DNA from: an uncultured beta proteobacterium
GTDB taxonomy: Bacteria > Pseudomonadota > Gammaproteobacteria > Burkholderiales > Burkholderiaceae_F
Reading direction: 5' to 3'
Length of the DNA stretch: 64,000 nucleotides
Assembly (NCBI GenBank): GCA_963801035.1
Contig: CAWDDF010000010.1
Location: 212,496-276,495, forward strand
Under the pieces are notes generated by a model. That model was not told where the DNA came from and made no database searches. It was given only the letters and a program-made list of their open reading frames with translations. The position numbers and the translations under genes are program-made. Below are positions 44,412 to 59,429 of this stretch, one piece after another. Position 1 is the stretch's first letter. Each line of letters opens with the position of its first letter.

Positions 44412-44471
44412 GCACATCGGCGCACGCCCAGGAAGCGTCTGTCGCGACTACCACGGTTGGCTGCCCGAACT

Positions 44472-46473
44472 ATGCAAGCGGTGCGCGCGCGCATAAAGCG
44501 ATGGTTAAACCGCCGTGAAGACACGGGTTGTGAGCAAGGTAAGCCCGATCCCGAACCCGAACCCTTTGTCGACAAGGCGCCGCCCGATCGCTTTTGCGAT
44601 CTCGTGCTGACGGGCGGTGTTACCAGCGGCGTCATTTATCCGTCCGTCGCCGTCGAGTTAGCACGCCATTACCGCTTCAAGAACATCGCCGGCACTTCGG
44701 CGGGCGCCATCGCGGCAGCCTTGACGGCGGCGGCGGAATACGCGCGGCGCAAGAGTCTTCCCGGCAGATTTGAGGCATTGAGCGACGTTCCGAAGCGGCT
44801 AGCCGAGGAAGGTCAACGGCAAGACGCGCTTGCTGTCGCTATTCCAACCGTCTCCGAAAACGAAGCGCCTATTCGGGCTTTTTCTTGGCATGTTGAACAA
44901 GAGCGAGGCCGGATCAGGAATGACATGGTCTGGCATGCTCGCCTGGACACTGGTAAAGCAATACTGGTTTGCGTTGGTTGTGCCGCTGCTGCTGGGATTG
45001 GCGCTCGCGTACGCGGTCACGCCGCGCTGGCTTGCGGTGATGGTCGGCCTCTGCGCCTTCGTTACCGCCGGTGTGATATGCGTTGCCCACCGTGTGTACA
45101 GAGACCTGAATGACGGCATGATTTCCAACGGGTTCGGTCTATGCAAAGGAAGCGAAACCAGCGATCCCGAGAATCCCGCTTTGACCGACTGGCTGCACGA
45201 AAATATTCAGAAGATGGCCGAAAAGGCCGACGCAGAGCCGCTGACTTTTAAAGATCTGTGGCGCGCGGAGCCATTACCAGAGTGGCTGGCTGACTTCTTC
45301 CCGCCCGACAAAGGAAGGGCAATCAATCTGCAGATCATTACCGCGAACCTGACCCATGGCCGTCCCTACCGTCTGCCGTTGGATGACGACTCGACCCGTC
45401 TTTTTTTCAAGGAAAGCGAGTGGCGAACATACTTTCCCGCCGGCGTGATGACGCACCTCTTGAAAGACAACGTCTCGCCGCGGTATGCGCCACGCGACAG
45501 CTCGGAGCCGCCCATTGATGGCGACACCGAAGGTCTGCGTGAGCTTCCAAAAGACAAGCTTCCGATCGTAGTTGCCGCGCGCCTGAGCCTGAGCTTCCCG
45601 TTTCTTTTTTCGGCGGTTCCCCTTTGGGCCATCGACTTCGAGCCAAAGATCGAAGTCGACAAAACGCACCGAAGAAAGCTGCGGCGGTGCTGGTTTTCTG
45701 ACGGCGGCATCTGCTCCAATTTTCCGATCCATCTATTTGATGCCTTCCTGCCCAAATGGCCGACCTTTGGCATTTCTTTGGGCCGACGCAGCCCGTTTCG
45801 CCCCGCCGAGCGCACTTGGTTGCCTGACTTTCATAACGAGGGGAGCGCGGACGCTTGGAACCGCTTCGATGATGAAACATCGCTGGCGACCGGCAAGCCG
45901 CGCAAATCGCTGCAGCGGCTCGTCGGTTTCGCGATGAGCATCATCGCGACAGCCAAGGACTGGAATGACAACACCGAGATGCGAATGCCAGGCTACCGCG
46001 ACCGCGTCGTTCGCGTCGGGTTCTGCGACGGTGAGGGAGAATTGAATGTCAGGCTGGACGATAAGGAGATCCTGCGGCTTGCCAGAGACTATGGCACCGC
46101 GGCGGGTAAAAAGCTTGTGGATAGATTCATCGGTCGGGACCCGGACTGCCCTTCGCAGGCCTGGAGAGATCATCGATGGGTGCGCTTCAATGTATTGCTG
46201 CAATCACTGCGCGAGCGCGTCAATATGATCACGCTGGCAGCGGAAGCAACGCCATACACGCAGCCGCTGAAGGAGCAGATCGCCAAAGCGTTCGCGGCGC
46301 GCCCGCTGTACGGCGTTAGGGATCATGAAGCGCCGTTGAGCGCGGCACAGGCCGACGCACTGGACGGGCTGCTCAATGCAATGATTGAACTTGAGCGGCA
46401 GTTCGAGAAGTATGCCGCGCAGCAGCCGTATCAAGCGGAGCCGAGGCCAAGCTTGAGAAATCGTCCGCCCTGA
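44472..46473 (+). CDS. Patatin-like phospholipase with internal TM hairpin and long C-terminal domain, interrupted by one apparent frameshift near 44805-44830
   Basis: Oxyanion region LVLTGGVTSGV. Nucleophile elbow GTSAG (Ser ~44697). Asp of the dyad in WFSDGGICSNFPIHLFD (~45700). Hydrophobic stretches are WFALVVPLLLGLALAYAV and LAVMVGLCAFVTAGVICVA. The two track ORFs (44457..45113 and 44830..46473) are collinear. Confidence 0.8.
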
Positions 46474-46490: not shown

Positions 46491-46682
46491 CTATCGGGTT
46501 CTGAGCGAAGTAACCGGCCTTAGGGTCGGTTCAACACATACTGCTTCCACGACACTCCGCCGGCGATGCTTTCCTTGTCTCGAATCATGTGACTCGCCGA
46601 ACACGTCGCGCAGATCGCGACACAGGTGCCCTGCAACGTACTGATCTGGATGTCGACGGTAGCTAACGAAGATCTTCGTCAT
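46491..46682 (-). pseudogene. TIR-domain gene remnant (N-terminal ~55 aa only, frameshifted)
   Basis: MTKIFVSYRRHPDQYVAGHLCRDLRDVFGES continues in another frame as MIRDKESIAGGVSWKQYVLNRP*. This covers only the TIR beta-A/alpha-A/beta-B region. The rest is missing, because the convergent patatin gene ends at 46473. Confidence 0.6.
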
Positions 46683-46748
46683 TACTCAACAATCCGTCGC
46701 GGGCATTGCAGTTTCAACGCGAATATTCGGCAAAGGCTGACTGACCGA

Positions 46749-49700
46749 TCAGTTCGTCCTGCCATACGTCTGCAGTTTCGCCAGCAGCTCTCCGGCTGCG
46801 CGACCCTCGCCGCCTGTAGCGCGCGCTGCGTACTTCGGCAGCACGAACGACGCCTGGTCGATTACCGAGCTCCACATCGAAGGCGCGCTGACGCGGGCGA
46901 ACAGATCCTCGAATTCCTGCTCGATCTCGGGGCGCTCGGCCGCGAGACGCCGCTCTGCGATCGCGATGTACATGCGCAACTCGATGACGCCAACGAAACT
47001 CCAGAAGTCAGGATCGTCTCGCGCCTTGGCCGCGAGACTGTCCCTTATTTCTGCCAACACCGAGTCGTCGAACTTGTGCGAGCTTCTGTTTCCTGCATCG
47101 ACGATCAGCTCAGCCGCCATCCGATTCAGCGCCGGATAAAACAGTGCTGAGCGATCGGTAGCGCGCGCGAGTGCCTCTGCTCGCGCATACGCTGCCTTCA
47201 TGCCGCTAATGGCGGTGAGCTCTTTGTCCGGCTTTCCGGCCGCTGCTTCAATCAACGCGAGTCGCTTCCACGCGGAGCCGCAAAGATTCTCACGCTCGAT
47301 CGAGGGCTGCAGCCTGGTCAGTCCTTCGAGCAAATCGAGCGCGGCCTTGACTTCCGCTCGCGCGTGCTCCAGTTGCGCCGCACTCGGCTTGGCTTTACCG
47401 GTGTGAGCCTGCTCTACAACTTGCAATGCAAGTCGCGAACGCAGGTTGCCGAGTTGTTCGCCCGCCTTGATCGAAGCGCTTCCATCGTTGGCGGCGAGCG
47501 CTTTGCGGTACCACGCGATTGCCGACGCGAAGTCTTTCGTCTCGGCCCACGCGACGCCGTAGGCCTCGGCCACCGCCCCCATGTCACCCCAGTGTTTTCC
47601 GAATTGCTCTTCGAGGTGGCGGATCTTCTCGCGCTGAGTCTCTTTGTCCGCTTTCTGGTAGCGGCTCTTTATCGCCAGTGATTCGAGCGCAAGCGTTAGC
47701 GCGACGGGGGACGCGACACCGGCAAACTCATCGGCCAGGGGCGGAGAGGGGTGCTGTGCATCGCCGACGCCGCGGCGGAAAACCCAGTCAGGATCGCCGT
47801 AGCACTGGTAGGCGCCCCACGTGTTACCTCCTCGCGCGTGCGCTGCGGTGCGCGCTGCCGCCACGGCGTCGATGAAGCGGCGGCCGCATAGCAATGCGTC
47901 GTAGAACGTCGTCGCAAAGATCATTGCAGGCTCGTCTTCAACCGCCCAACCGGCAGCGACGACGCAACGCACGCCGATCTTGATCAGCTCTTCGGCGACG
48001 TTCGCGGCGAAACGCGACCGGTCGTAAGAGCCCGTAAGCACCTCGCTTGGATTGCGTGCCGCCAGATGGCAGCAGTTGACGAACACCAGCTCCGGCACTG
48101 CACGCATGTTGCGAATCTCGCGCGTGCCGAGAAACGAGTCGCCCGACAGCACGACCCCGCGGGGATTGACGAGCTGCTGCAAGGGGTCATCTTGCTTTTT
48201 CGGAATCGGACCCGCCATCTCCGGCGGCTCGCCGTGGCCAGCGATGTGCACGATGCGCCAGTCGCGCTCCATCAACGTGTTGATGACGGTGAGCGCGTCG
48301 GCACCGAACTGCTGCGGGTCATCGGGGCTGATCAGCGCCTTCACTTGTTGCGCGCCAACCGTCTTCAAACGCTCTGCGACCGCGTTCGCCTCGATGCGCG
48401 CGCCGATCAGGCGCGGGTACCGGCTATCGCATTTGGGTTCGCCGATTACGAGCACGCTCGCATCGGCGTCGGCGTCGACGATCTGTTGGCGAAACTCTGC
48501 CGTCCGCAGCTTGCGCAGAAGCTTCGCGCGAATCGCCCACGGCGGCTGGTCGTGCGACGTGGCGCCTTGGTCGGTGTCGAGCAGCTCCCAGGGAATTCCG
48601 GCGGTGCCGCTGTCGAGCTCCATCACCATTTCGGTGGTCCCGCCGAGGAACGGCTCCATCTCGACCGGCACCAGCAGCTGGAACAGCGTGCGGCCGATAC
48701 GCCGATCGGTGTTCTGATCGTTCGATGCGCTGGCTACCAGCTCGCGCAGCAGCGGCCCCTGTGTGGCCTGTGCACGAACTTCAGTTCGCGCCCGCTTGGT
48801 ATCGAGCGTGTACGCGATCATGGCGTCGTTGTGCAGGCCGAGTTGTGTGACGGCCGAGATGAAGTCGTAGTTGACACCTCGATAGCTCGAGTCGAGCGGC
48901 CTCCGCAGCGCGCCGGTCCCTTGGCGCACGACGTCGGTGACCGCATAGCGGCCCGGTGTTGCCGTGTCCTGCACCTGCAACGAACGCCAGGCCTCGGTCG
49001 CGCGGTCGAGATACAGCTCGACCAGATGCAGGTGGCCGACGCGAGGCCAGCGGCGAACGGGGCGCTTGCTGTCGGCTGCGCGCTCCAGGGTCTCCTTTTC
49101 ATTGGCCTCACGCAGACGATCGTCCGCCTCACGCACGCCTTGTACGACGAGCTGCGCCGACTGGCCCACGGTGATCCCGGTACCGCCGCTGCCGATCATC
49201 GTGGCCGCGAGCTCGAACAGAGCGGGAGCGTCGGCGTTGGTCTCGCCGATACGTTGTGCCCATGCGATCGTCGCTTGCCGCACCGTGTGAACAAGCTCAG
49301 CGGGGGAAAGTTTGCCTTCCTCACCGAGGCCGACCACGACCACCGCTTCAGGTCGCGGCGGCAGCCACGGGTTGTCCGGATCTGCCTGCATATTGATGAA
49401 CACCTGGTGCGTGCCGGTCGGTACCGGGTATAGGCCGACCTTCAGCGCGTCTTCCATCGCGCCGCCTATCAGCTGGTTCATCACGGCTTCGGTGCCCGAC
49501 AAACGCAGAGAGCGATAGTGTCCGATCAATAACGGCTCGCGGATGAAACGAAGGTCGCCATTGACGACCGTGACTTGCAACGCGGCGCCGCGCGCGGCCG
49601 GACCGGCGATGGTCTGCCGATCGTCGAGCGAAAGCAGTTCGCGCGCGTTCTCCGGCGGCGGTCCGGTCACCCGGGTGCGTGACGGCCGGCTGCGTACATG

Positions 49701-52377
49701 CGCGACCGGTGCGGTTGCGCCGCGAACCTCCGCCTCAGCAAACGGCTGCAGCAAACCCGTAGTGCCGGTGCTCAGCAGTTCCACGTAAGCGGGAAACGCC
49801 GCCTTCTCGTCCGGCAAGCCGCCATGCTCGCAGTCGAGTTGCCACGTGCGGACACCCGGCAGGCGCGCGCTCGTAATCGTCACACGGCCGTCGCCGTGAT
49901 TCGGCGCGTCGAGATACACAAGCCCTTCGTCGCCGATCTCGTAGCCATCGGGTGTGAAGCGCGCTTGACCCACGACGAGCTTCACCTTGTCGCTGAACGA
50001 GGCCAGGTCGGCTGCTATCTGCGCATCCAGGCGCTGGCGCAGGGCCAGCGCGCGGTCAAGCACGGACTGTGGCGGCACGCCCCAGGTGCACGACTCTATC
50101 TGCAGTCCTTCGTGGTGCCACCAACTGTTCTCGCGCACGCGTTTCAGATCCTCGTCGGCGAGCGCCTGCCACGTCGCGTGTTGGTCGAGCGCAAGCTTGG
50201 TGTCTAGCAGCCCGGCCTGCAGTTGAATGAATCCCGGCATCCGAGCCATCAGCGCGCGCGCGGTGCGATCCTGAAACGGTGCGCCGAAAGTCACCAGCAG
50301 ATTGCCGAACGTGTCGTCGCCGGATAGCACCTGCATCGGAGCCCACGAACCGCCGTTCGGCGTGCCTAGCATCAACAAGCGCGCATCGGGGTGCGCCATC
50401 ATCCGCTGCCAAACCTTCGGCTTCTCGAGCTGCATCGTGCGCGCGAGCACTCCGCCCATCGAGTGAGCGAGCAGGCGGACCGGCTTACCGCTCGCCTTGC
50501 GTGCGTCGAGCGCGGCAGTGACCGCGTCTGCCAGACGCGCCGCTTCGTCTTCTATCGGACGCCGCCAATCGAACGCGAATTCGATGACCTCGTGCGTCTT
50601 TGCCAGATACTCGCCGAGGTCGTCATAGCTCATCCCGACTGGCCCGTCGGGCTCGACACCGTCGGGCTTGCCGGTGTAGTCGAGCTTCTTGAGGCCGTTG
50701 ATCAGGCGCCAGCCGAGCCAGATGCGTTTGCCGTTGACCTTTAGGTTGCTGCCCAAGATGCCGGGCAGCACGAACACCGCTGGCTTGTCGCTCGCGGGCT
50801 TGCCGTCGTCGGCTCCGCGTATGCGGCCACGCACGCCGGTGGCCGATTCGCCGGACCACGACAGCGGCCCAATGACGCGAAAGCCGGTGGGCATGTCTTG
50901 CGTGAGCGCGTTGACAATGGCTTCGGCCGTGCGCTCGTTGCTGAAATAGTTGAAGTGCGAAACCTTGCCGCCCTGGTCGAGCACGAACGTCGCCCCGGCG
51001 GCACGTGGAGCACCGCCGTACATCGAACGCGTCTGAACCACCAGGTCGTTATCGGTCCAGTAAAACGAATCGGCCAGCAGCGTCTTCAGCCACGACATCA
51101 CCGAGTCGCCCTCGATGTCGCCGGCCACCACGCGCAATTCGCCCGGGATCGGCTCGTCTACCGCATGCAGCCAGCGCACCAGCGGACTGTCGGGAATCTG
51201 CGCCGCGAGGCCGGGAATCTTGTCGGGGTCTGCGCGTCGCTGTGCCACCTCTCCCAGGAAGTCGACGAGCACGGGCGCGACCGGAATGCCGGCCAGTTCC
51301 AGGGTCCACTTGAACACCGACAAGTACGCGTCGAGTCGCTTGGACGCGAGCAGCGTGCCGCGCGCCGGGCATGCCACGCGCACGATGCGCTCGACCTTGA
51401 TACCGCGTGTTTTCACCTCGTCGACGAGCGTCTTCAGCGCATCGCGCTGCGCTTTGTATTCGGTGCCCTTGAACAATGCCGTGTCGTCGGGGCTCAGCTT
51501 CGGGTTTGCACAAACGCGCGCCAGTACTTCCGCCACCAACCCGCCGCGCGAATGAGTGACCAAGTGCAGGCGCGCTCCCTTGGGCAGCGCCTGCACGAGC
51601 GTCAACGCATTGCTGATCGGGCCAACGCCCAGCGTCGGATGCTCGAGTCCATAAACTCGGTCGGCATACTTTGCGAACAGCGTGCGCACGTGCTGTGGGT
51701 ACTGCGACCACAGTTTGGAAAATGAGCCGCTGGTCGTCGTGAACGTGCCATGCACGAACACCAGCAGCGGCCCGCCGTCGGCCGCGGCCGGCGCCTGCGC
51801 AAGCGGCTTGCCGGTGCCCTTCAGCGGCGGCAGCGATTCGCGCGGCAATGCATACAGGCCAGCGGTTACCTGATTGTCGACACGTTGCACCGCCTTCGTG
51901 ACTACGAAGTCGGCTGCATCGCCTTTGCTGACGCCGGTGACCACCTCGATCGCCGACAGCAACACGTCGCCCAGGAAGCCGCGGGTCGCACCACGGACTG
52001 GCGCTTCTTTCTCGAGTCCGCGCCAACGCAGTTGCGCGGGAACTCGTACCTCGTTGGGTCCCGGTTGATCAACACCCTGCTCCGCGAGTTCGTTTGATTT
52101 GGCCTTGCTGACCCAGCATCAGGTCGCGTGCGTTTTCGGGATGCAGGGTCAGTGCCGGTCCGCCTGCGATGTGCAGCACGACAACGTCCTCGCCAGGCAT
52201 CGCTGCAACGCGTACCTCGGCACCGACGCCGCGCTGCGCGCCAACGCGTACGGATTGCTTCAGAACTCCGCTGGTCAGCCCCGCCGGCAGCGGTGCGGCC
52301 GCCGCGCCGCGCGTTGCGGCGGGCTGCTCCTGTCCGGGAACGAGAAAGACAATCGGCTGTGCAGCGGTCGTTGCCAT
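46749..52377 (-). CDS. Giant multidomain protein: N-terminal leader domain / two lipase-like alpha/beta-hydrolase modules / LAP-N (macro-fold)-like module / CHAT protease / C-terminal helical repeats; one apparent frameshift between 52072 and 52118
   Basis: Track ORF 46749..51965 (1738 aa) has several motifs. Hydrolase 1 is LLVFVHGTFT…LVTHSRGG (Ser ~51551). Hydrolase 2, LCAT/PGAP1-like, is FVLPGILGS…FDWRRP…LLAHSMGG (Ser ~50462). The LAP-N-like pattern is VTVVNGDL…LLIGHY…AVVVVGLGEEGKLSPAELVHTVRQA. The CHAT dyad is RIVHIAGHG (~48236) and LVFVNCCHLA (48069-48074). Its frame stays open upstream to 52118 and overlaps the end of ORF 52069..52467. The latter's internal ATG at 52377 (MATTAAQPIVFLVPG) has an aagga RBS and sits 19 nt after the amidase stop. 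Confidence 0.75.
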
Positions 52378-52396
52378 CCGTCGATTCCTTATGACT

Positions 52397-53104
52397 TTAG
52401 CGGCGTACGAGCGTCGAGCGCGTGCGCGCTCGAGTTTTCTTCTTCGGCGCTTTGTGCATGACGCCAACTTTCACCGCGCCGCGCTGAACCGCCATCGCGG
52501 GCGCGTTGCGATCGAGCGCGCGGCCGGCGATTGCCGCCAGTGGAAACGCGGGCCCAGGATCCTGCTTGCGTCCGCGCGCGATGTCTTCGTGGCCGAGCAC
52601 GTCCTGCAGTCCGTAGTAGTCGACTAGCAGCTTGGCCAACTCGTGCGCACGCTCTATCTGCACTTCGGTGTAGACGTGCCACGGCCGCGTGCCGCCGCCG
52701 TGTTTGTGCTCTGCGAGCATCACATCGCCTGCACCGTATTCCTTGCCGAACCACGCGATGAACTTGTCGCCGACCCTATTCAACCAACCGGCATTGTCCA
52801 TCTCAATGCCGATCGAAGCGCGGTTCAGCCCCACGAGTCCATTCCACTGGCTGACTCCGGCATGCCAGGTGACGATGTTGAACGGCGCGAGTTGCACGAT
52901 GCGCCCGTCGCGCGACACCACCAGATGTGCAGACGCGTTTCCCTGCGGCTTGCGAGTGCACAGCGACTCGACCGAGCTGTCGGCCGACCGGCCCGCCGTG
53001 TAGTGGAACACCAGAAAGCGTGCTTTCAATTCGCCGCCGCAGTTCGGCGTGGCGCGGAAGCTCACGCCGTCTCCGATCAGCCGATGATTCTCGATGCTCA
53101 GCAT
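52397..53104 (-). CDS. N-acetylmuramoyl-L-alanine amidase (Amidase_2; AmpD/PGRP-type)
   Basis: Track ORF 52397..53296. The preferred start is ATG 53104 (MLSIENHRLIG), 7 nt after the caspase stop. Motifs are FLVFHYTAG…ASAHLVVSRDGRIVQL…TWHAGVS…SIGIEMDN…GHEDIA…KQDPGPAFP. Confidence 0.85.
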   Translation of the reverse strand: MLSIENHRLIGDGVSFRATPNCGGELKARFLVFHYTAGRSADSSVESLCTRKPQGNASAHLVVSRDGRIVQLAPFNIVTWHAGVSQWNGLVGLNRASIGIEMDNAGWLNRVGDKFIAWFGKEYGAGDVMLAEHKHGGGTRPWHVYTEVQIERAHELAKLLVDYYGLQDVLGHEDIARGRKQDPGPAFPLAAIAGRALDRNAPAMAVQRGAVKVGVMHKAPKKKTRARTRSTLVRR

Positions 53105-53111
53105 GGACGGC

Positions 53112-54030
53112 TTACACCGTAAATGGACGCTGCGCGACGAAGCGCGCGACGTCGCCGAGCAGATACAGATTCGGCGTCTGTCCTGGCGGCATGCCGGCCC
53201 GGATAGCGGCGTGAAAACTTGCGTAGTTTCCTTGGTAGGCGCCGCGGTTCCACACTTGCAACAGCTGCCCCGTAAAGGCGCCGTTATAGTCGCCATCCAT
53301 CGACGTCTGGTTGTCCTGGCAGCCGGAGATAAGAATCACTGCGGCTTTGAACTTGCGCACGATCGCACTGACGCGACCGCTGCTTACGCTGAGGTTCGAC
53401 AGCACCGCATCCGGATCAGCGATACTGGCTTTGCCGGCATTCTTGGCGATGTCGGCCTGCAGCTTGTCGTAGAACTTTTGATGCTGCTCGTATGCCCGGC
53501 GCCCGACCTCGACCGGCATCATCTTTGAGCGACCAATGACTAACGTGCCATCTGCATTCGGCCGACGAGCGCGCGTGACGGTGCCGGAGTGGCAGCTGTC
53601 GGATAACACGAGGATGCGCACGCCCGTCGGCGAAGCGGCTCAGCTCGTAGTACAGCTCGTCGTCGATCAGCTGACCGTCGTACAGACACCAAGTCTCGTC
53701 CTGCTTGTCGGATTCGTCGCCGGTGATGTCGGGCACCTGGCCGCCATGACCCGAGAAGGTGAGGAAGAAAAAGTCTCCTGCACGCAGCGACTTGGCGGCA
53801 TCACGAATGCCGGCCAGTATGTTCGCGCGCGTGCCCTTCTTCGTCAGCAACACGCTCGTCTTCATGCCCTGCGCTCGGGCAAGCGCAGCCAAGTCGTGCG
53901 CGTCGAATTCACACGCCGCGAGAGGTCCGCTCCAGCCGCCGTAGGCCGAAGGGCTCACCGTGTTCAGACCAATATTCAGCGACAGCGCCCGCGGCTTGGT
54001 CGCGAGTGCCTTGCGTCGTTTGCCTGCCAT
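53112..54030 (-). CDS. Caspase-fold (peptidase C14) protease, interrupted by one apparent frameshift near 53620-53632
   Basis: ATG 54030 ([23 protein letters not shown]) follows a gggaggag RBS. The catalytic His is in [11 protein letters not shown] (~53746-53748). After the shift at a gacggg run the frame reads [13 protein letters not shown], with the catalytic Cys at 53592-53594. Confidence 0.8.
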
Positions 54031-54204
54031 GCGCTCCTCCCTTACTTTCTTGGGCTCGATCATCGCCACAATCGATCGCCTCGGCAACCGCTTACATCGA
54101 TGAGTGCGTCGTGAAAAATGGACAAGATGCTTGTTGACTACTGCGTTAACGTTCGCGAAACGTGACCATGACGCTCTTCGAATCCCGGTAGCCACGTCAT
54201 CGCC

Positions 54205-55989
54205 ATGTTCGGTCCCCGCCTGTTCGTCAGCTACCGCCGCGCCGACTCGGAGGCCACCGCTGGCCGCCTGTTCGAGGCGCTGAGAGCGCGGTTCGGAGAT
54301 CGCGTGTTCTTCGATACATCCAGTATTCCGTACGGAGAAGACTTCCGACGCGTGATACGAACGCGCATAGCCGCGAGCGACGTGGTGCTTGTCGTCATCG
54401 GAAAACAATGGCTCACTGCCGCCGACGAGCGCGGGCTCAGGCTGCAGCAGCCGGACGATCCGGTTCGCTTCGAGATCGAAACCGCACTCGCGCGCGACTC
54501 GGTGCGAGTAGTGCCGGTGAGAATTGATCACGCTGAGCCGCCGCCCGAGTCGGCCCTGCCGGCGTCGATTGGCGCGCTGGCGGCGCTGAACATGGCGCAG
54601 CTGCGCAACGAAACGTTCGACGTCGATTTCAACGCGCTGGTCGAACAACTGCACGGTCGGATGCCCGGCGACGTCGTCCGCGAGCTCGACTGGAGCAGTC
54701 GCGTCAAGGCGACAGCAGCGGCGTTTCCAATCGCGGCGATAGCGATTGCACTGCTGGCGCTGCTGGTTGCATGGTCAGGCGCACTCGACCTGTTGCACAT
54801 CGACACGCATGTGCAACGGCTCTTGCTCGCTGCCGGCGCCCGCAATGCCGGTGAGCCGGTACTGCTGGTGGGCATCGACGCAGCAAGCGAGCGTGAGCGT
54901 GGCAGACCCTTTGGGCCCGCTGAGCATGTGGCCGCCTGGCGCCGCGACCACGCGCGCCTGATCGATCGTGCTGCGCTCGCTGGCGCTAAGGCCGTGGTGT
55001 TCGATATTTTTTTCGAACGCACGACCGATGCCGATGCCGAGCTCGCCGCTGCTGCGCGTCGCGCCGCCAAAGGAGCAACACCGACGCGTGTGGTCTTCGG
55101 CGTGCGCCGCCTCGCAGGCGACGCGCCCGAATTGCCGCCGATCCTCCGCGACGCTGGGCAATGGGGGTCGCTGTGCCTGATCGACCGCGGTGGTGGTGCT
55201 TTGTGGTCGACGCCGCTTGCAATCGCGCAGCGCAGCAGCACGCGCGCCGGCGACTCGGTTGCAGCGGTACATCCAGCGCTGTCTTTGGCGGCTCTGGTGG
55301 GCGAACCGCTACGCGCAGCCGATCTGTCCCGGCGTGAGCTGCGATTCGACGGGCCGCTGCGTCTAACGCCGGTTCGCTTCAGTACGGTCGAGCCGACGCG
55401 GCTCGACCATCCTTCGTGCCCCATCGCGCGTGACGGCGACGACCAGTTGACGCTGCTGCTGCGCGTTGCCCCGGCTGGGCACTGGCGCGACGCGGCGCGC
55501 CAAGTGTCGTACGCCGACGCGCTGGATTCGGCGCGCGTCGGCGACGATCGCTTCAAAGGCCGTGTCGTCCTCGTTGGAGCGATGGCGCTCGAGCGTCCCG
55601 AAGCGAACGCCGACATCCACATCGTTCGCGAAGGCTTTGTGCCTCGCCAAGTGTTCGGCGTCGAACTGCAGGCCGACGCCATCGCGACACTCGCCAGTGG
55701 CCGCGTGCCGCAACTGCTTACCGTCGGGGGTCATTTCGCTACGACCCTGCTGGCCTGCGCTCTCGGGGCGGTAGCTGCGCTCGGGTTGTATCGCCAACCG
55801 CGATGGTGGCGCCGTGGTGCGCTGCTTGCGCTGATGCTCGCCTGGATGCTCGTTGCGTGGTGGCTAGCGACGCGCGACATCGTGATCAACGCAGCGCATG
55901 ATGTGATCGCGATGCTGCTGTCGTATCTTGCGCTGCGCGCGACGCAATGGTTCGCGCGCACCTTCCAACGCGTGCGGAGACCGACATGA
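54205..55989 (+). CDS. TIR-domain protein fused to a CHASE2 extracytoplasmic sensor domain (multi-pass membrane protein)
   Basis: The TIR domain is [47 protein letters not shown]…[12 protein letters not shown]…[14 protein letters not shown] helix follows. The CHASE2 pattern is [12 protein letters not shown]…[29 protein letters not shown] … [18 protein letters not shown]. There are C-terminal TM helices. Confidence 0.85.
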
Positions 55990-56651
55990 GTACCTCAGCC
56001 AGTTGTCTGTGTCGCTGGCCTACATTCCTGGCGCTGGTGTTGACGCTGGCCGGCAGCGCCAACGCGCAAACCGCGTTGCCGCCGGCGCAGTTGTGGCAGA
56101 TCGCACGCGAAGTGCCCGGCGCCGACCCGCGCTGGCAGCGCATCGACGCCGACAAGACCGCGGTGCGGGTATGGCGCGGCGGTCGCGAGATTGCGGTTCA
56201 GCGACTAATGACCTTGCTGCCGGGCGACGAGTTAGAGACGGGTCAGAACGTAGCCGTGGTACTTCGCTTTCGCGATGCCGGCGAGACGTTGATACATAAA
56301 GGCACGCGTGTGCGAATCGGCTCGCTCGAAGTCGTTTTCGGGCGCGTGTTCGCGCAGTTGCGGAATCGGTTCACGGTGTCGAGCCAGACTGTCGTTGCTG
56401 GCGTCGAGGGGACGCGTTTTCTGTTCGAGGTCGGTCGCGATCGTGCGGTGCGGATCGCGGTGGCCGACGGTGCAGTCGTGTGCCGTTCGCCGAAGGACGC
56501 ATGGGCGCCGGTGCGGCTGCGTGGCAACGAGTCGCTGTTGGCGCGCTACCCGGGCCGTGGGCCGCCAGCAGTGGGGAAGGCAGACGCGCGCGAGATGCGC
56601 GCGTACGAGGAACTGTCGCTGCAAATTGGTCGCGCGACCGCTGCAAGATAG
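55986..56651 (+). CDS. Secreted FecR-domain protein
   Basis: ATG 55986 overlaps the TIR-CHASE2 stop (ATGA). The signal peptide is …WPTFLALVLTLAGSANAQ. The FecR-type beta-rich core is GDELETGQNVAVVLRF…TVSSQTVVAGVEGTRFLFEV. Confidence 0.8.
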   Translation: MSTSASCLCRWPTFLALVLTLAGSANAQTALPPAQLWQIAREVPGADPRWQRIDADKTAVRVWRGGREIAVQRLMTLLPGDELETGQNVAVVLRFRDAGETLIHKGTRVRIGSLEVVFGRVFAQLRNRFTVSSQTVVAGVEGTRFLFEVGRDRAVRIAVADGAVVCRSPKDAWAPVRLRGNESLLARYPGRGPPAVGKADAREMRAYEELSLQIGRATAAR

Positions 56652-56663
56652 TAGAAGCGGCCA

Positions 56664-57257
56664 GTGAAAAAGATGGCAACGCCGCGGCTCATATTTTTGT
56701 TTAGCGGTCACATGATCGACAAGCTGGGCCGTAGGCATCCGCGGTTTCCGCCCGAGTGCGAGCCGAGCGTCGCCGCTGCAATCGACGCCAAGCTAACCGA
56801 GCTGGGTGCTGATGCTAATGATTTGGGAATTACTCAGGGTGCGTGCGGAGGCGATCTGCTGTTCGCCGAAGCCATGTTGAAGCGCGGTGCAGCGCTGGAG
56901 CTGCATTTGCCGCTTACTGAAGAAGTGTTCATTAACCGGTCGGTCGATTTCGAGAAGGCGTCGCTCAATAGTCCCGACCGCTGGCGCGATCGGTTTCTCG
57001 CTGTCCGGCGCCATCCGTCCGTTGCTGTGACTGTGATGAGCAACGACGGCCAAGCGTCAGACGATGTATTCGAACGCTGCAATCTGTGGATGGTCGAGCG
57101 CGCACTTTCCTTCGGCGCCGACAAAGTGCGCTTTATCTGCGTGTGGAACGGCGAAGGCGGCGACGGGCCGGGTGGCACAGAACACATGCGTAAAGCGGTG
57201 GAGCAAAGCGGCGGCGCGCAGTACTGGATCGATACTCGCAAACTGTGTCAGCAATAG
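56664..57257 (+). CDS. Hypothetical protein, possibly SLOG-fold (LOG/DprA/YpsA-like Rossmannoid)
   Basis: 197 aa. LIFLFSGHMID…GITQGACGGDLLFAEAMLKRGAALELHLP resembles the (S/Q)G-x-x-G-x-D…A glycine-rich loop of SLOG families. A later motif is VWNGEGGDGPGGTEHM. This is weak, motif-level evidence only. The start could be GTG 56664 or ATG 56673. Confidence 0.35.
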   Translation: MKKMATPRLIFLFSGHMIDKLGRRHPRFPPECEPSVAAAIDAKLTELGADANDLGITQGACGGDLLFAEAMLKRGAALELHLPLTEEVFINRSVDFEKASLNSPDRWRDRFLAVRRHPSVAVTVMSNDGQASDDVFERCNLWMVERALSFGADKVRFICVWNGEGGDGPGGTEHMRKAVEQSGGAQYWIDTRKLCQQ

Positions 57258-57311
57258 CGCGGCCAAACATCACCAACAAACAATTCTTCCCCGTCATTGC
57301 AAGGAAATTCG

Positions 57312-58187
57312 ATGCCCGACAATCTGCAGCCCATCACGCAGGTCGACTCCGCTGCGTTCGAAAGACCGGAGTTCCAGCAATCATTGAACGACTATTCCCG
57401 AGTATTCCTCGCGGAAGGCGATTCGTGGTTCAGCTACGGTTCGACGAAGTTCCGCAATACATTTACTTCGATGGAGTTGCCTTACCCCGCCTGTGTGCTC
57501 AATATTTCCGAACCCGGCGACACGCTGCGTCGAATGCACGAGACAACTCGCAATCGGCAGTTCTACTTTTATCTGCGAAACAAGAGCGGGCGACGCTGGA
57601 ACGCAATTTTTCTTTCTGGTGGTGGCAATGACCTGATGGACGCTTTGTGGAACAAGGAGGCGCAGCGCTCTGAAATATTGGTTAGGCCGAACGCGCCGGG
57701 AAGCATCGACCAATCGAACCTGCGCTCAGTGATTAACGAGGACGCTCTCGATGCACTGCTTAACTACATCAAGGTCAACGTCGCTCAGATCGTCGCGCAG
57801 GGACGCGACGGTCCAGGCAGCGACAGCCAGGGTGTTCCGCTGCTGATGCACACCTACGCGCTGGCGCAACCTCGTAACGCGCCGGTGCGGCACGTGGGAG
57901 GAGGGCCCTGGCTCTTTCCGGCGTGCGTATGGCTGGGGATCGATTCGGCGCTGTGGTTGGACCTTAGTCGGTTGCTGCTGGAAGAGCTCGCTGCGTGCAT
58001 CAGGTCAATCGACCTGCCAAATTTTCATGTTGTCGATACGTTGAAACTGACTACGACACTGATACCAGCCGCTGCTGGGACTACGGGAGATTCAAACGAC
58101 TGGGACAATGAAATTCATCCCAATCGCGGCGGCTACAAAAAACTCGCTGCCACCTGGACGGAGGAGATCGCCAAGATACTTCCCTGA
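57312..58187 (+). CDS. SGNH/GDSL-type hydrolase (esterase/lipase fold)
   Basis: ATG 57312 follows an aagga RBS. Block I is FLAEGDSWFSYG. Block III is IFLSGGGNDLMD. Block V-like is WDNEIHPN. Confidence 0.7.
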   Translation: MPDNLQPITQVDSAAFERPEFQQSLNDYSRVFLAEGDSWFSYGSTKFRNTFTSMELPYPACVLNISEPGDTLRRMHETTRNRQFYFYLRNKSGRRWNAIFLSGGGNDLMDALWNKEAQRSEILVRPNAPGSIDQSNLRSVINEDALDALLNYIKVNVAQIVAQGRDGPGSDSQGVPLLMHTYALAQPRNAPVRHVGGGPWLFPACVWLGIDSALWLDLSRLLLEELAACIRSIDLPNFHVVDTLKLTTTLIPAAAGTTGDSNDWDNEIHPNRGGYKKLAATWTEEIAKILP

Positions 58188-58451
58188 TGCAGGAACGCAG
58201 TAGCGCTTGACACGATTCTTGACTACGTCCTCAAGGTGCGTCATCGAACCCCACGCGCCCTCGCTGTCGAGCACTGCGCGATGGATTTGAGTTCGTATAA
58301 CACGCCAGAATCTGGCTCCTTGAGTCTCCTCGCGCAAGTGTCAGGTCGATGCGCCTGGAGCGCGAATAAGCAGTAGTCGCTCAGCAGATTCGCTTTTACA
58401 CTCGGCAGCGAAGGCCGGGGCTGCGGCGGGCCCGGGCAAGCGGAGGTGCCG

Positions 58452-59429
58452 ATGGCCGACTTGTTCGTCAGCTATTCGCGCGAAGACAAGGCGCGGGCAG
58501 CCGAAGTCGTGCGTCTGCTTGAAGACTATGGGTGGGACGTTTTCTGGGATCAGGAAACGCGCGCGGGTGAGCTGTGGCCGGAGGTGCTCGAAGAAGAGCT
58601 CGGTAGGGCGCGCTGCCTGGTGGCGCTGTGGACCACTACCTCGATTGCGAGCCGCTGGGTTCGCATAGAGGCATACGAGGCGCTACAAAGCGAAAAGCTG
58701 GTACCGGTGCTGCTAGATAAAGTGCGGCCACCGCTCGAATTCCGGCAGACACAGACTTTCGATCTTATCGGCTGGAACGGTGACCGCGACGATGCTCGAC
58801 TAGCGCATTTTTTGGCAGATCTGACGTCACTTGTGAAGGCGCCCAGTTCAGACCGTGCGTCACCTCGAGCTCAGATCGTCGTTCCAACCACACTGCGTCG
58901 TCCGATGCCGCCCGCGACGCCAACGAATGAGGCGCATGCAGGCAGTGGCAAGGCCGATGCGCAATCTGCAGCGATTGGTTCCCAACCTCAGGAGACTCGC
59001 CGCTCTGCTTCTTCGTCGCGAGCTTCCGGGTCGACAGCTCCTTCCTCGCGCGGTCTCGTTATCGGTTTTGGCGTCACTGCGGCGGTCGCTGCTGCTGTCT
59101 GGTTGATCAGCACGATGGACTTTTCCGCCGAATCGAGTCCGCCGATCGAGGCAAAACAGTCGTTGCAGACAACACCGGCTGCACCGTCGACCAGCGTTGC
59201 CGCGCCGGTGCCTCCGACTGTCCAGCCAGCACCTGCCACGCCCCCGCCTGCTCAGACGGCTGCCATTGCCCCAGGTACATCCCCTCCGCAGGGTTCCAAA
59301 CCTGCTGCTAAGCAGCCGTCAAAGTTGCGGTCGTCTCGTTGCCTGGCGATCGAGGAAAAGTTTCAGCAAACCGGACAGATAACGGTGACCGAGCGAGACC
59401 TTCTTCGCAGCAAGGAGTGCCAATCGTGA
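58452..59429 (+). CDS. TIR-domain protein with TM helix and Pro/Ala-rich extracytoplasmic tail
   Basis: A GGAGG RBS precedes ATG 58452. The TIR domain is MADLFVSYSREDKARAAEVVRLLEDYGWDVFWDQETRAGELW…CLVALWTTTSIASRWVRIEAYEAL. The TM helix is LVIGFGVTAAVAAAVWLIS. A P/A/T-rich linker and a short Cys-containing C-terminus follow. Confidence 0.85.
   Translation: MADLFVSYSREDKARAAEVVRLLEDYGWDVFWDQETRAGELWPEVLEEELGRARCLVALWTTTSIASRWVRIEAYEALQSEKLVPVLLDKVRPPLEFRQTQTFDLIGWNGDRDDARLAHFLADLTSLVKAPSSDRASPRAQIVVPTTLRRPMPPATPTNEAHAGSGKADAQSAAIGSQPQETRRSASSSRASGSTAPSSRGLVIGFGVTAAVAAAVWLISTMDFSAESSPPIEAKQSLQTTPAAPSTSVAAPVPPTVQPAPATPPPAQTAAIAPGTSPPQGSKPAAKQPSKLRSSRCLAIEEKFQQTGQITVTERDLLRSKECQS

What the first reader, a model, noticed from the sequence alone, without database searches (positions are those of the whole stretch)
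46491..58187. Divergent pair of operons joining TIR-CHASE2/FecR envelope sensing to caspase, CHAT, lipase and amidase effectors: candidate undescribed multi-effector conflict system
Two tightly packed operons diverge from a 174-bp gap (54031-54204). The rightward operon has four genes: a TIR domain fused N-terminally to a CHASE2 sensor; a secreted FecR protein whose ATG overlaps the preceding stop (ATGA at 55986); a possible SLOG-fold protein; and an SGNH hydrolase. The leftward operon has a caspase-fold C14 protease with an intact His/Cys dyad, then a PGRP/AmpD-type amidase 7 nt downstream. Next comes a ~1.87k-aa protein with two lipase-like modules, a macro-like module, an active CHAT domain and helical repeats, followed by a decayed TIR. 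Sub-pairings are known individually: CHASE2 with FecR, and TIR with caspase-like proteases (a recently reported Thoeris variant, from my recollection). I know of no described system with this full composition. My inference is a three-step logic. An envelope signal is sensed by CHASE2/FecR. The TIR domain then makes an NAD-derived signal. SLOG/macro-like sensors relay that signal to proteolytic, lipolytic or cell-wall execution.
Basis: partly seen in the sequence, partly recalled or inferred. Interest (0 to 1): 0.85.

Follow-up and report, generated by a model that had tools for sequence, protein, structure and literature searches.

The report
Membrane TIR sensor beside protease-lipase effectors
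A soil Burkholderiales genome carries a membrane receptor built like a Toll-like receptor (outside sensor, membrane anchor, inside TIR enzyme) next to protease, lipase and cell-wall enzymes with predicted nucleotide-binding folds (macro, SLOG), which looks like an undescribed variant of bacterial TIR immune signalling.

Summary
All gene positions, overlaps and catalytic-residue coordinates are correct. TIR_2+CHASE2, FecR, C14, Amidase_2, CHAT and TPR-S are supported by Pfam. The two guessed folds hold up: the 197-aa protein is SLOG-like (YpsA/DprA) and the giant protein has a macro fold before CHAT. These are probably long-read assembly errors: a 99%-identical contig breaks the same genes mostly at other sites, and dN/dS is about 0.04-0.08.

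Comparative data change the picture. TIR-CHASE2+FecR is an autonomous two-gene module. FecR follows it in all ~35 loci where the contig continues, and about 24 of these sit among housekeeping genes. The giant hydrolase-macro-CHAT-TPR-S protein with a standalone caspase, usually with its own TIR and often SLOG or patatin, is a far larger separate family. The two modules are neighbours in the window's clade. Distant TIR-CHASE2 relatives (about 29-33% identity, four loci) also lie next to these partner families.

Best reading: a composite Thoeris-like system in which TIR products are read by macro and SLOG domains, with a CHAT-to-caspase cascade. It extends beyond the given coordinates. This is a new variant of a known kind, and untested.

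The parts
54031..54204 (.). 174-bp divergent intergenic region between the caspase start (54030, -) and the TIR-CHASE2 start (54205, +)
   Evidence: ORF coordinates and sequence. No sigma-70 consensus promoter or terminator was found. A GGGAGGAG Shine-Dalgarno lies before the caspase ATG.
54205..55989 (+). TIR-CHASE2 membrane protein (594 aa): cytoplasmic N-terminal TIR (about residues 1-150), TM1 (166-199), periplasmic CHASE2 (about 200-510), then three C-terminal TM helices. No C-terminal output domain.
   Evidence: Pfam TIR_2 55 bits and CHASE2 81 bits. Four hydrophobic segments. E90 in the DPVRFE motif, and Cys324/Cys405, are invariant in 31 homologs. The nearest solved TIR is the SARM1 NADase.
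55986..56651 (+). Secreted FecR-domain protein (221 aa), translationally coupled to the preceding gene by an ATGA overlap
   Evidence: Pfam FecR 24.5 bits against a cutoff of 24. Overlap confirmed. An FecR homolog directly follows TIR-CHASE2 in every locus where the contig allows.
56664..57257 (+). Stand-alone SLOG-fold protein (about 195 aa; likely ATG at 56673) with invariant GACGGD and GDGPGGT motifs
   Evidence: No Pfam, NCBIfam or PADLOC hit. 2,607 homolog clusters. AF2 pLDDT 89.5. Foldseek hits to YpsA 2nx2 (E 2.9e-6, TM 0.60/0.65), DprA, ShosA and LOG, and to viral SLOG/DprA-like proteins.
57297..58187 (+). Cytoplasmic GDSL/SGNH-like hydrolase (weak assignment), seen only in the window's clade
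   Evidence: Pfam Lipase_GDSL_2 25.1 bits (cutoff 32.9) and Lipase_GDSL 23.3 bits (cutoff 23.6). GDSW motif in the translation. Homologs found only in L001, L002 and L012.
53112..54030 (-). Stand-alone C14 caspase-like protease (305 aa once repaired), GSU0716-like. His lies in FSGHGG and Cys in DSCHSG (53592-53594). It is split by one extra base at ~53627.
   Evidence: PDB 3bij E 2e-84. The extra base is absent from seven homologous loci. The intact 305-aa ortholog is in L006.
52397..53104 (-). AmpD/PGRP-type N-acetylmuramoyl-L-alanine amidase (235 aa), with no signal peptide
   Evidence: Pfam Amidase_2 94.6 bits. NCBIfam AmpD 79.6 bits, below the 143-bit cutoff. The start lies 7 nt after the caspase stop.
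46749..52377 (-). Giant effector of about 1,876 aa, with a frameshift at ~52076. Modules: N-terminal about 100 aa; hydrolase 1 (DUF7379, HSRGG; 50886-51788); hydrolase 2 (LCAT-like, HSMGG; 49806-50798); macro fold (48936-49583); CHAT (47781-48713; His 48234-48236, Cys 48069-48074); TPR-S (46752-47768).
   Evidence: Pfam. Macro fold: AF2 pLDDT 75, Foldseek YmdB/macroH2A/MacroD2 at E about 1e-6. Catalytic motifs invariant or nearly so in 26 homologs. Module coordinates from custom HMMs. Frameshift mapped against L006 and others.
46491..46682 (-). Truncated, frameshifted remnant of a TIR gene (about 55 residues recognisable). It lies at the synteny breakpoint with the 99%-identical contig.
   Evidence: BLASTP against the TIR-CHASE2 N-terminus, E 1e-5. 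A second frame continues the TIR-like sequence. Homology to L001 ends at 46653. Intact TIR genes follow the giant gene in L006, L011, L092, L115 and L120.
58446..59429 (+). Second membrane-anchored TIR protein (327 aa): TIR, linker, one TM helix (202-224), Pro/Ala-rich periplasmic tail
   Evidence: Pfam TIR_2 78.7 bits. Translation shows a WVRIE motif. TM segment. Conserved next to the operon in L001 and L012.
59438..60742 (+). Lipoprotein with TPR and an OmpA_C-like peptidoglycan-binding domain. It is the probable periplasmic partner of the TIR-TM protein.
   Evidence: Pfam OmpA 28.3 bits and TPR. Lipobox IAGC in the translation. The pair is kept together, inverted, in L012.
44457..46473 (+). 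Patatin-like phospholipase (GTSAG and DGG motifs), split by a frameshift near 44830-45113, convergent with the giant gene
   Evidence: Pfam Patatin on both pieces. Translation. Patatin is the commonest neighbour of this SLOG family, in 20 of 38 loci, and precedes TIR-CHASE2 in L025, L032 and L039.

Best explanation
The region is a composite, Thoeris-like TIR/NAD-signalling conflict island assembled from separable modules.

(1) Two membrane-anchored TIR proteins look outward. TIR-CHASE2 works with its secreted FecR partner. A TIR-TM protein works with a TPR/OmpA lipoprotein. An envelope or periplasmic cue is proposed to switch on the cytoplasmic TIR, which cleaves NAD+ into an ADP-ribose-derived messenger.

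(2) The messenger is read by a macro domain embedded in the giant hydrolase-hydrolase-macro-CHAT-TPR-S protein and by the small SLOG protein.

(3) The activated CHAT protease processes the stand-alone C14 caspase, and possibly frees its own lipase modules. This gives broad proteolysis and membrane lipolysis. Patatin, the AmpD-like amidase and the SGNH hydrolase are accessory effectors.

Shown here: domain and fold identities, membrane topology, conservation of catalytic residues, purifying selection, and recurrent gene neighbourhoods.

Inferred: the trigger, TIR enzymology, which TIR feeds which sensor, the CHAT-to-caspase order, and a defensive or suicidal outcome.
For: - Domains and folds.
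- Topology is TLR-like, with 1+3 TM helices around CHASE2 and the TIR inside. Invariant periplasmic Cys pair and invariant TIR Glu.
- FecR follows TIR-CHASE2 in all ~35 loci.
- Recurrent adjacency of TIR-CHASE2 with the partner families at deep divergence: L035 (giant homolog with macro, same strand as TIR-CHASE2 and FecR); L032 (TPR-S-SLOG, patatin, TIR-CHASE2, FecR in one overlapping operon); L039 (caspase divergent from TPR-S-SLOG, patatin, TIR-CHASE2); L025 (patatin, TIR, TIR-CHASE2); L098. The window's clade includes the rearranged L002.
- The giant protein's own contexts: TIR within 10 kb in 4 of 6 unrelated loci, C14 in 4 of 6, and C14-giant-TIR operons in L115 and L120.
- In this window the cognate TIR behind the giant gene is a remnant, leaving the membrane TIRs as the nearby intact TIR genes.
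- Catalytic Ser/His/Cys invariant or nearly so. dN/dS 0.04-0.08 for the giant gene, caspase and amidase.
- Precedents from papers: the macro domain senses His-ADPR in type II Thoeris and SLOG senses 3'cADPR in type I (10.64898/2025.12.03.692087). A SAVED-CHAT protease activates a caspase-like protease in type III-B CRISPR (discussion of 10.1101/2024.10.24.620036). Caspase domains in conflict systems come with alpha/beta-hydrolase partners (PMC7159879).
Against: - Most TIR-CHASE2+FecR pairs (about 24 of 35) have no such neighbours and sit among housekeeping genes, so the sensor pair does not need these effectors.
- Most members of the giant-protein and SLOG families have soluble TIRs and no CHASE2: CHASE2 is present in 2 of 38 SLOG loci, both close relatives.
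- L006 and L013 keep a separate TIR gene behind the giant gene although TIR-CHASE2 is present.
- No protein reaches the cutoff of any curated Thoeris or PADLOC model.
- The caspase and the giant gene are frameshifted in the window as given.
- The macro model is moderate (pLDDT 75), and no Pfam Macro hit was obtained.
- The locus is chromosomal, flanked on the right by housekeeping genes. No known defence system was detected nearby.
Confidence: 0.45

Rival explanations
1. These are independent neighbours, not one system. TIR-CHASE2+FecR would be a self-contained sensor-effector pair in which an envelope cue turns on a TIR NADase that depletes NAD+. The caspase/amidase/giant-protein operon would be a different system that relied on its own TIR, now lost. 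The two lie together only because conflict genes accumulate in the same variable spots.
For: - The pair stands alone in about 24 of 35 loci.
- The two families differ roughly 30-fold in abundance.
- The region behind the giant gene is a swap hot-spot with different content in the window, L001, L006 and L013.
- L006 and L013 carry a further TIR gene behind the giant gene.
- The nearest solved TIR is the NAD-depleting SARM1.
Against: - At least four distant lineages independently place TIR-CHASE2 in the same strand run as SLOG, patatin or giant genes, with overlapping or closely spaced ORFs (L025, L032, L035, L039). Chance clustering does not easily explain this.
- The SLOG gene sits inside the TIR-CHASE2 operon throughout the window's clade.
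Confidence: 0.3
2. This is a physiological envelope-signalling pathway rather than an immune or suicide system. CHASE2/FecR pairs normally drive kinases or cyclases. Here the output would be a TIR that makes an NAD-derived second messenger, or acts as a scaffold, to regulate envelope remodelling, lipid turnover and muropeptide recycling through the amidase, lipases and proteases.
For: - FecR+CHASE2-histidine-kinase operons regulate biofilm formation in Burkholderia (PMC5192318).
- Most TIR-CHASE2 loci are in housekeeping contexts such as ATP synthase, queuosine genes and recG.
- The amidase is AmpD-like.
- RlpA-like DPBB/SPOR genes precede the giant gene in L011 and L090.
- The right flank of the window holds MltA, DsbC and ApaG.
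Against: - The partner repertoire (multiple TIRs, CHAT, caspase, patatin, TPR-S, SIR2-TIR, nSTAND, Tle1-like lipases) is typical of conflict systems (PMC7159879).
- Gene content around the core is highly variable between close relatives.
Confidence: 0.15
3. The leftward operon is genuinely decaying in this organism. The caspase and giant-gene frameshifts and the TIR stub would be real mutations, so only the rightward operon is functional.
For: - Two frameshifts and a truncated TIR lie in one operon.
- At the 52076 site both the window and the 99%-identical L001 lack bases relative to intact homologs.
Against: - L001 is in frame at 53627, and breaks the caspase and giant genes at other sites as well (48215, 53785).
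- Substitutions between the two contigs are overwhelmingly synonymous (26:3, 7:1 and 4:1).
- Patatin in the window and FecR in L001 are also split. Other contigs named contig_N from the same ENA assemblies have fragmented housekeeping genes. This pattern fits long-read indel errors.
Confidence: 0.12

Closest known systems
Thoeris TIR-signalling defence systems (types I, II and IV; expanded set in bioRxiv 10.64898/2025.12.03.692087)
   Same: TIR genes with the catalytic Glu lie next to proteins carrying SLOG or macro folds, the two known receptors of TIR-made ADPR derivatives. Effectors are protease and lipase types. A caspase-family protease is present, as in type IV.
   Different: - The TIR is fused to an extracytoplasmic CHASE2 sensor with a FecR partner, so it is not cytosolic.
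- The macro domain is embedded in a 1,876-aa two-hydrolase-CHAT-TPR-S protein.
- The caspase is a bare 305-aa C14 domain without the C-terminal sensor domain described for the type IV effector.
- No protein reaches the ThsA/ThsB/ThcB model cutoffs.
- CHASE2 and CHAT are not mentioned in the systematic survey.
FecR + CHASE2 sensor pairs (e.g. the Burkholderia BiofilmReg operon, P. aeruginosa PA4035/PA4036; PMC5192318)
   Same: A secreted FecR-domain protein is encoded next to a CHASE2 membrane sensor with 1+3 TM topology, in Betaproteobacteria.
   Different: - Known pairs have a C-terminal histidine kinase (elsewhere a cyclase or GGDEF) as output, plus a response regulator.
- Here there is no C-terminal output and the cytoplasmic module is an N-terminal TIR.
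- Gene order is CHASE2 then FecR.
- The FecR protein has no LysM domain hit.
SAVED-CHAT to PCaspase proteolytic cascade of type III-B CRISPR-Cas (as summarised in bioRxiv 10.1101/2024.10.24.620036)
   Same: A nucleotide-sensor domain is fused to a CHAT protease and encoded with a separate caspase-like protease. This suggests a two-step protease cascade.
   Different: The sensor is a macro fold rather than SAVED. The presumed signal source is a TIR rather than Cas10. The CHAT protein additionally carries two lipase-like hydrolases and TPR-S. There is no CRISPR locus.
Caspase/alpha-beta-hydrolase effector pairs and TPR/STAND conflict systems of multicellular bacteria (Kaur et al. 2020, PMC7159879; 2021, PMC8195603)
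   Same: Caspase-superfamily peptidases are coupled to alpha/beta-hydrolases. TIR, SLOG and macro occur as NAD-linked modules. TPR sensor arrays, nSTAND and cyclase-STAND neighbours are present. A caspase protein with a variable C-terminal CHASE2 domain is mentioned in the 2021 paper.
   Different: Those systems are built around vWA-MoxR, GTPase or STAND cores. A search of both papers found no TIR-CHASE2+FecR pair and no hydrolase-macro-CHAT-TPR-S giant.
BcTir/Tpr and related Tir-Tpr, YpsA-Tpr, Patatin-Tpr assemblies (bioRxiv 10.1101/2023.05.26.542521)
   Same: TPR proteins associate with TIR, YpsA-type SLOG and patatin genes. This matches the widespread TPR-S-SLOG + patatin + TIR neighbourhoods found here.
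   Different: BcTpr has an N-terminal glycosidase-like domain and a C-terminal TPR. Here SLOG is C-terminal to TPR-S or stand-alone. No CHASE2, CHAT or caspase is involved there.

Membership tests
Thoeris (generic) | TIR-domain protein with the catalytic glutamate | tested here: met
   TIR_2 55 bits. E90 invariant in 31 homologs. The TIR-TM protein has a WVRIE motif.
Thoeris (generic) | Adjacent effector carrying a domain known to bind TIR products (SLOG or macro) | tested here: met
   SLOG fold of the 197-aa protein. Macro fold inside the giant protein. These are fold predictions only.
Thoeris (generic) | Proteins match curated ThsA/ThsB/Thc models above cutoff | tested here: not met
   The best hit is ThcB4 at 51.6 bits against a cutoff of 220. 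PADLOC ThsB hits cover only the first 60-80 residues of the TIR.
Thoeris (generic) | Phage-triggered production of an NAD-derived signal, and protection from phage | not testable with these tools
   Needs expression, LC-MS and plaque assays.
Type IV Thoeris (TIR + caspase-like effector) | Caspase-like effector with a C-terminal putative signal-binding domain, encoded next to a cytosolic TIR | tested here: not met
   The caspase is 305 aa and the C14 domain spans residues 28-287. It is GSU0716-like. There is no extra domain, and the neighbouring TIR is membrane-bound.
CHASE2 sensor proteins | CHASE2 domain flanked by one N-terminal and three C-terminal TM helices | tested here: met
   Pfam 81 bits. 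TM segments at 166-199, 510-529, 537-557 and 559-577.
CHASE2 sensor proteins | C-terminal cytoplasmic output domain (kinase, cyclase, GGDEF) | tested here: not met
   The protein ends about 15 residues after the last TM helix. The only cytoplasmic domain is the N-terminal TIR.
FecR/CHASE2 gene pair | Secreted FecR-domain protein encoded adjacent to the CHASE2 gene | tested here: met
   Pfam FecR 24.5 bits against a cutoff of 24. A signal-peptide-like N-terminus is visible in the translation. Adjacency holds in all ~35 loci.
Peptidase C14 (orthocaspase, GSU0716-like) | C14 domain with the His/Cys dyad in one intact reading frame | tested here: inconclusive
   Domain and dyad are present, but the ORF is broken at ~53627. 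Seven homologs lack the extra base and dN/dS is low, so the break is probably an assembly error.
CHAT protease | CHAT domain with conserved His and Cys | tested here: met
   Pfam 81.9 bits. The IAGHG and NCCH motifs are invariant in 26 homologs.
SLOG superfamily | Rossmann-like SLOG fold with Gly-rich nucleotide-binding loops | tested here: met
   Foldseek prob 1.00 to YpsA, DprA, ShosA and LOG and to viral YpsA-related SLOG proteins. Invariant GACGGD and GGT motifs. No sequence-profile hit to Pfam or PDB.
Macro domain | Macro fold | tested here: met
   Foldseek E 1e-6 to 1e-5, prob 1.00, target-normalised TM 0.6-0.77 to YmdB, macroH2A, MacroD2 and the SARS-CoV-2 macrodomain. The model has pLDDT 75.
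Macro domain | Sequence-profile match, or demonstrated ADP-ribose binding | tested here: not met
   No Pfam Macro hit on the whole protein. The profile against PDB sequences found nothing relevant. Binding is not testable here.
SAVED-CHAT/PCaspase cascade | SAVED sensor fused to CHAT, in a type III CRISPR context | tested here: not met
   No SAVED hit. No cas or other known defence model matched the genes scanned between 25 and 61 kb. The window was not scanned for CRISPR repeats. Only the sensor-CHAT plus stand-alone caspase layout is shared.

The most novel reading that the evidence does not exclude
TIR-CHASE2+FecR would be a bacterial receptor with Toll-like-receptor topology: an extracytoplasmic ligand sensor with a secreted co-receptor, membrane helices and a cytoplasmic TIR. 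It would convert an outside cue (phage contact, envelope damage or a competitor's attack) into an NAD-derived second messenger. In some lineages that messenger would fire a macro-CHAT-to-caspase protease cascade and SLOG/patatin lipolysis. This would be the first outside-in TIR signalling pathway in bacteria, and it would link surface sensing to caspase-type execution as in animal innate immunity.
Probability: 0.3. Interest if true: 0.9.

Novelty: new variant of a known kind. Interest (0 to 1): 0.7.

Why it matters
To my knowledge, characterised bacterial TIR immune systems use soluble cytoplasmic TIR proteins that react to events inside the cell. Here a TIR with an intact catalytic Glu is wired to a periplasmic CHASE2/FecR sensor. 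The pair is conserved from Betaproteobacteria to Gammaproteobacteria, a Syntrophorhabdus MAG and a Verrucomicrobiales MAG. In the same island a second TIR is membrane-anchored beside a peptidoglycan-binding lipoprotein.

If these TIRs signal, they would show that bacteria can start TIR/NAD signalling from the cell surface, the layout that defines Toll-like receptors. The work also defines three things that appear undescribed:
- a very large family (more than 2,400 clusters) of two-lipase-macro-CHAT-TPR-S proteins that travel with a bare caspase and TIR genes;
- a large SLOG family (about 2,600 clusters) that travels with patatin and TIR;
- a plausible macro-CHAT-to-caspase cascade parallel to the CRISPR SAVED-CHAT cascade.

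Cultured carriers of the TIR-CHASE2+FecR sensor pair exist (Thauera sinica, Thauera sp. 2A1, Azohydromonas lata), so that pair is directly testable.

Tried and rejected
- Megablast of the 11.7-kb block against PLSDB plasmids found only a 38-bp chance match. There is no evidence it is plasmid-borne.
- Pfam, NCBIfam and PADLOC on the 197-aa protein gave nothing. A profile search of PDB sequences gave only chance lipase hits. Only structure prediction resolved it.
- A profile of the giant protein's middle region against PDB sequences gave a chance capsid hit. The CHAT-TPR-S region gave no PDB sequence hit.
- PADLOC and NCBIfam gave no above-cutoff assignment to any named defence system for any gene of the island.
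- Literature searches returned nothing for CHASE2+FecR+CHAT, DUF7379, or TPR-S with TIR or CHAT. The search for CHAT domain + TIR + macro gave no relevant paper.
- The idea that the TIR remnant derives from the SIR2-TIR gene of L006 was tested by tblastn. Only an 18-residue weak match was found, so this is not established.
- The first tblastn-only neighbourhood survey missed divergent patatin genes. It was replaced by custom HMMs and Pfam scans.
- The promoter/terminator consensus scan of the divergent gap found nothing.
- I first read L001 as fully in frame at 52076. The alignment shows it is also one base short there.

Full report
ANATOMY

A 174-bp gap (54031-54204) separates two divergent gene strings. 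Rightward lie four genes:
- a 594-aa protein with Pfam TIR_2 (55 bits) and CHASE2 (81 bits);
- a 221-aa FecR-domain protein whose ATG overlaps the preceding stop as ATGA. Its FecR score is 24.5 bits against a cutoff of 24;
- a 197-aa protein with no hit in Pfam, NCBIfam or PADLOC;
- a weak GDSL/SGNH-like hydrolase, just below the Pfam cutoffs.

Leftward lie four features:
- a C14 caspase (76 bits; E 2e-84 to the Geobacter GSU0716 structure 3bij);
- an Amidase_2/AmpD-like amidase starting 7 nt later;
- a giant protein with DUF7379, LCAT-like, CHAT and TPR-S hits;
- a 63-aa ORF whose first 28 residues match the TIR N-terminus (E 1e-5). It continues TIR-like in another frame before ending.

The caspase His and Cys lie in different ORFs. 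One extra base at ~53627 is absent from seven homologous loci. The giant protein's first ~100 codons (from 52377) are out of frame with the 1,738-aa ORF, and the break is at ~52076. The patatin gene next door is split too.

A metagenomic contig, L001, is 99.08% identical over 17.3 kb. It differs by 16 one-base indels. It is in frame at 53627 but breaks the caspase, the giant gene and FecR at other places. At 52076 both sequences are short relative to intact homologs, by 2 and 1 bases respectively.

Substitutions between the two are almost all synonymous: giant gene 26:3 (dN/dS 0.04), caspase 7:1, amidase 4:1. Contigs from the same ENA assemblies, named contig_N, show fragmented housekeeping genes. 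I conclude the frameshifts are most likely long-read assembly errors, though this is not proven. An intact version exists in L006 and L013: caspase 305 aa, and a giant gene that in L006 is 1,678+218 aa, split only near its end.

THE TWO GUESSED FOLDS

The 197-aa protein has 2,607 homolog clusters with invariant GACGGD and GDGPGGT motifs. AlphaFold2 gives pLDDT 89.5. Foldseek finds YpsA (E 2.9e-6, TM 0.60/0.65), DprA, ShosA and LOG, and viral DprA-like and YpsA-related SLOG proteins. It is a SLOG-fold protein.

The stretch of the giant protein between the second hydrolase and CHAT was modelled at pLDDT 75. It matches macro domains (YmdB, macroH2A1.1, MacroD2, SARS-CoV-2 Mac1, PARP14) at E about 1e-6 to 1e-5 with target-normalised TM 0.6-0.77.

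The giant protein is therefore, in order: N-terminal ~100 aa, hydrolase (HSRGG), hydrolase (HSMGG), macro, CHAT (IAGHG/NCCH), TPR-S. All these motifs are invariant or nearly so across 26 homologs down to 55% identity.

TOPOLOGY

TIR-CHASE2 has one hydrophobic segment after the TIR and three at the C-terminus. This is the canonical CHASE2 arrangement, but with no C-terminal output. The TIR is cytoplasmic and CHASE2 periplasmic. Two Cys in CHASE2 and the TIR Glu (E90, DPVRFE) are invariant in 31 homologs down to 29% identity. The nearest solved TIR by sequence is the SARM1 NADase.

It is followed by a lipoprotein with TPR and an OmpA_C-like domain. This pair is kept together, inverted, in L012.

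COMPARATIVE GENOMICS OF TIR-CHASE2

The family is small: 81 clusters. About 35 distinct loci were examined, from encoding-contig look-ups, a GTDB genome scan and a metagenome scan. An FecR gene directly follows TIR-CHASE2 in all of them where the contig continues.

The carriers include Burkholderiales, Thauera, Accumulibacter, Chromatiales, Thiotrichales, Syntrophorhabdus and Verrucomicrobiales, including cultured Thauera sinica, Thauera sp. 2A1 and Azohydromonas lata.

In about 24 loci the neighbours are unrelated housekeeping genes. No CHAT, C14, patatin or TIR family recurs among 156 neighbouring ORFs. The pair is therefore an autonomous module.

The effector genes are adjacent in two sets of loci:
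- the window's clade: L001, L002 (rearranged onto one strand), L006, L012, L013, L093, L094 and L098;
- four distant lineages at about 29-33% identity. L035 has TIR-CHASE2, FecR and a 2,097-aa giant homolog with a macro region, all on one strand. L032 has TPR-S-SLOG, patatin, TIR-CHASE2 and FecR with overlapping ORFs. L039 has a C14 gene divergent from TPR-S-SLOG, patatin and TIR-CHASE2. L025 has patatin, TIR, TIR-CHASE2 and FecR.

Repeated assembly with the same partner families at that divergence is hard to explain by chance. I regard it as real, though minority, functional coupling.

COMPARATIVE GENOMICS OF THE PARTNERS

The giant protein family is large: more than 2,494 clusters, with hundreds above 55% identity. 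In six contexts chosen only for contig length:
- TIR genes are within 10 kb in four (L009, L011, L091, L092);
- C14 caspases are within 10 kb in four (L009, L010, L011, L090);
- other neighbours include extra CHAT proteins, Tle1-like lipases, patatin, TPR-S-SLOG fusions and RlpA-like DPBB/SPOR genes.

Operons in the order C14-giant-TIR occur in L115 and L120, and SLOG-C14-giant in L101. The window's leftward operon is therefore the common C14-giant-TIR unit with an inserted amidase and a decayed TIR. The region behind the giant gene differs in the window, L001, L006 and L013, and homology to L001 stops at 46653 inside the TIR stub.

For the SLOG family, 38 metagenomic loci of at least 5 kb were scanned. 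Patatin is adjacent in 20. SLOG is fused to TPR-S in 18. A TIR is nearby in 16, the giant protein in 6, C14 in 5, and CHASE2 in only 2, both close relatives.

MECHANISM

Known precedents are as follows. SLOG and macro domains are the receptors of TIR-made signals in type I and type II Thoeris, and a caspase-like protease is the type IV effector (10.64898/2025.12.03.692087; 10.1101/2024.10.24.620036). In type III-B CRISPR a sensor-CHAT protease activates a separate caspase-like protease (same preprint, discussion). Caspase-superfamily domains in conflict systems come with alpha/beta-hydrolase partners (PMC7159879). FecR+CHASE2 pairs are established periplasmic sensor pairs with kinase outputs (PMC5192318).

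Putting these together, the best-supported model has three steps:
- membrane TIRs, or soluble TIRs in other genomes, generate an ADPR-type signal;
- the macro domain of the giant protein and the SLOG protein bind it;
- CHAT then processes the bare caspase and perhaps its own lipase modules, while patatin, amidase and SGNH add lipolytic and cell-wall activities.

The envelope theme supports an outside-in trigger: CHASE2/FecR, the OmpA-type lipoprotein, the AmpD-like amidase and the RlpA-like neighbours elsewhere. None of the enzymology is shown. I put 0.45 on this model and about 0.3-0.35 on the specific link from TIR-CHASE2 to the effectors.

The main rival (0.3) is that the sensor pair is self-sufficient, for example a gated NADase, and merely co-located with the other genes.

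KNOWN OR NEW

No protein reaches the cutoff of a curated Thoeris or PADLOC model. The systematic TIR survey does not mention CHASE2 or CHAT. The only paper found that mentions both CHASE2 and a TIR domain describes a caspase protein with a variable C-terminal CHASE2 domain, not TIR-CHASE2. DUF7379 and TPR-S returned no paper. TPR with YpsA, patatin or TIR assemblies has been noted once.

The principles are known. The membrane-sensor TIR, the giant macro-CHAT effector family and their combination appear undescribed. This is a new variant of a known kind.

LIMITS

- Neighbourhood statistics rest on the best 80 loci per scan, on custom HMMs and on heuristic ORF calls.
- The counts of independent lineages are approximate.
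- The macro model is of moderate confidence.
- The SGNH and FecR assignments are at or below Pfam cutoffs.

Noticed in passing
window 25782-27212 (-): Another TIR_2 protein (476 aa, 74 bits). Its 76%-identical homolog in L002 lies about 2 kb upstream of TIR-CHASE2, so the island holds three intact TIR genes plus a remnant.
   Followed up: partly
window 28271-36770 (+); L010 562-9010; L032 14-6401; L166 18167-20560: A five-gene set: an 870-aa protein with a haem-binding motif, 302-aa and 637-aa unknowns, and two RoxA-like di-haem cytochrome c proteins. It recurs directly next to C14-giant (L010), next to TPR-S-SLOG-patatin-TIR-CHASE2 (L032) and near TPR-S-SLOG/TIR (L166). It may belong to the same neighbourhood. 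Its function is unknown.
   Followed up: partly
window 37029-41204 (+) and 41156-43150 (+): A 1,391-aa protein with a nucleotide cyclase, AAA_16 (STAND-like) and TPR domains, followed by an overlapping 664-aa ORF with no clear family (possibly another frameshift) and a DyP-like gene (43092-44411). This is a conflict-system-type architecture between the cytochrome set and patatin.
   Followed up: partly
window 44457-46473 (+): The patatin-like phospholipase is split by a frameshift near 44830-45113. It carries a hydrophobic stretch long enough for two TM helices (residues 41-90 of the second piece) between the GTSAG and DGG motifs.
   Followed up: partly
window ~52076 and L001 ~7872: At the same site the window lacks two bases and the 99%-identical contig lacks one, relative to intact homologs. 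This suggests a systematic basecalling hot-spot, or possibly a hypermutable site.
   Followed up: partly
window 46653 (inside the TIR remnant): Homology to the 99%-identical contig L001 stops here. L001 has two unrelated unknown genes (173 and more than 637 aa) where the window has the TIR stub and patatin. L006 has SIR2-TIR plus nSTAND1. This is a gene-swap hot-spot behind the giant gene.
   Followed up: partly
L093-L172 (metagenome loci): This SLOG family is very often followed on the same strand by a patatin gene (20 of 38 loci of at least 5 kb) and is frequently fused to an N-terminal TPR-S array (18 of 38). This is a widespread TPR-S-SLOG + patatin (+TIR) unit that I did not find described in this form.
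   Followed up: partly
L011 8779-9867; L090 9225-9926: An RlpA-like DPBB_1 gene (with SPOR in L011) sits immediately upstream of the giant gene, where the window has the amidase. Peptidoglycan enzymes thus recur next to this effector.
   Followed up: no
window 61102-64000; L001 16898-21785: The right flank is ordinary housekeeping: a UbiH-like FAD monooxygenase, DsbC, MltA, ApaG, Rpe and a HAD phosphatase. The island ends at about 60.7 kb.
   Followed up: partly
L009 15710-17758; L091 16916-18970: A recurring downstream string of TPR-S-SLOG fusion, Tle1-like lipase and a second ~1,070-aa CHAT protein follows the giant gene in two unrelated contigs. This is a larger multi-protease version of the system.
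   Followed up: no
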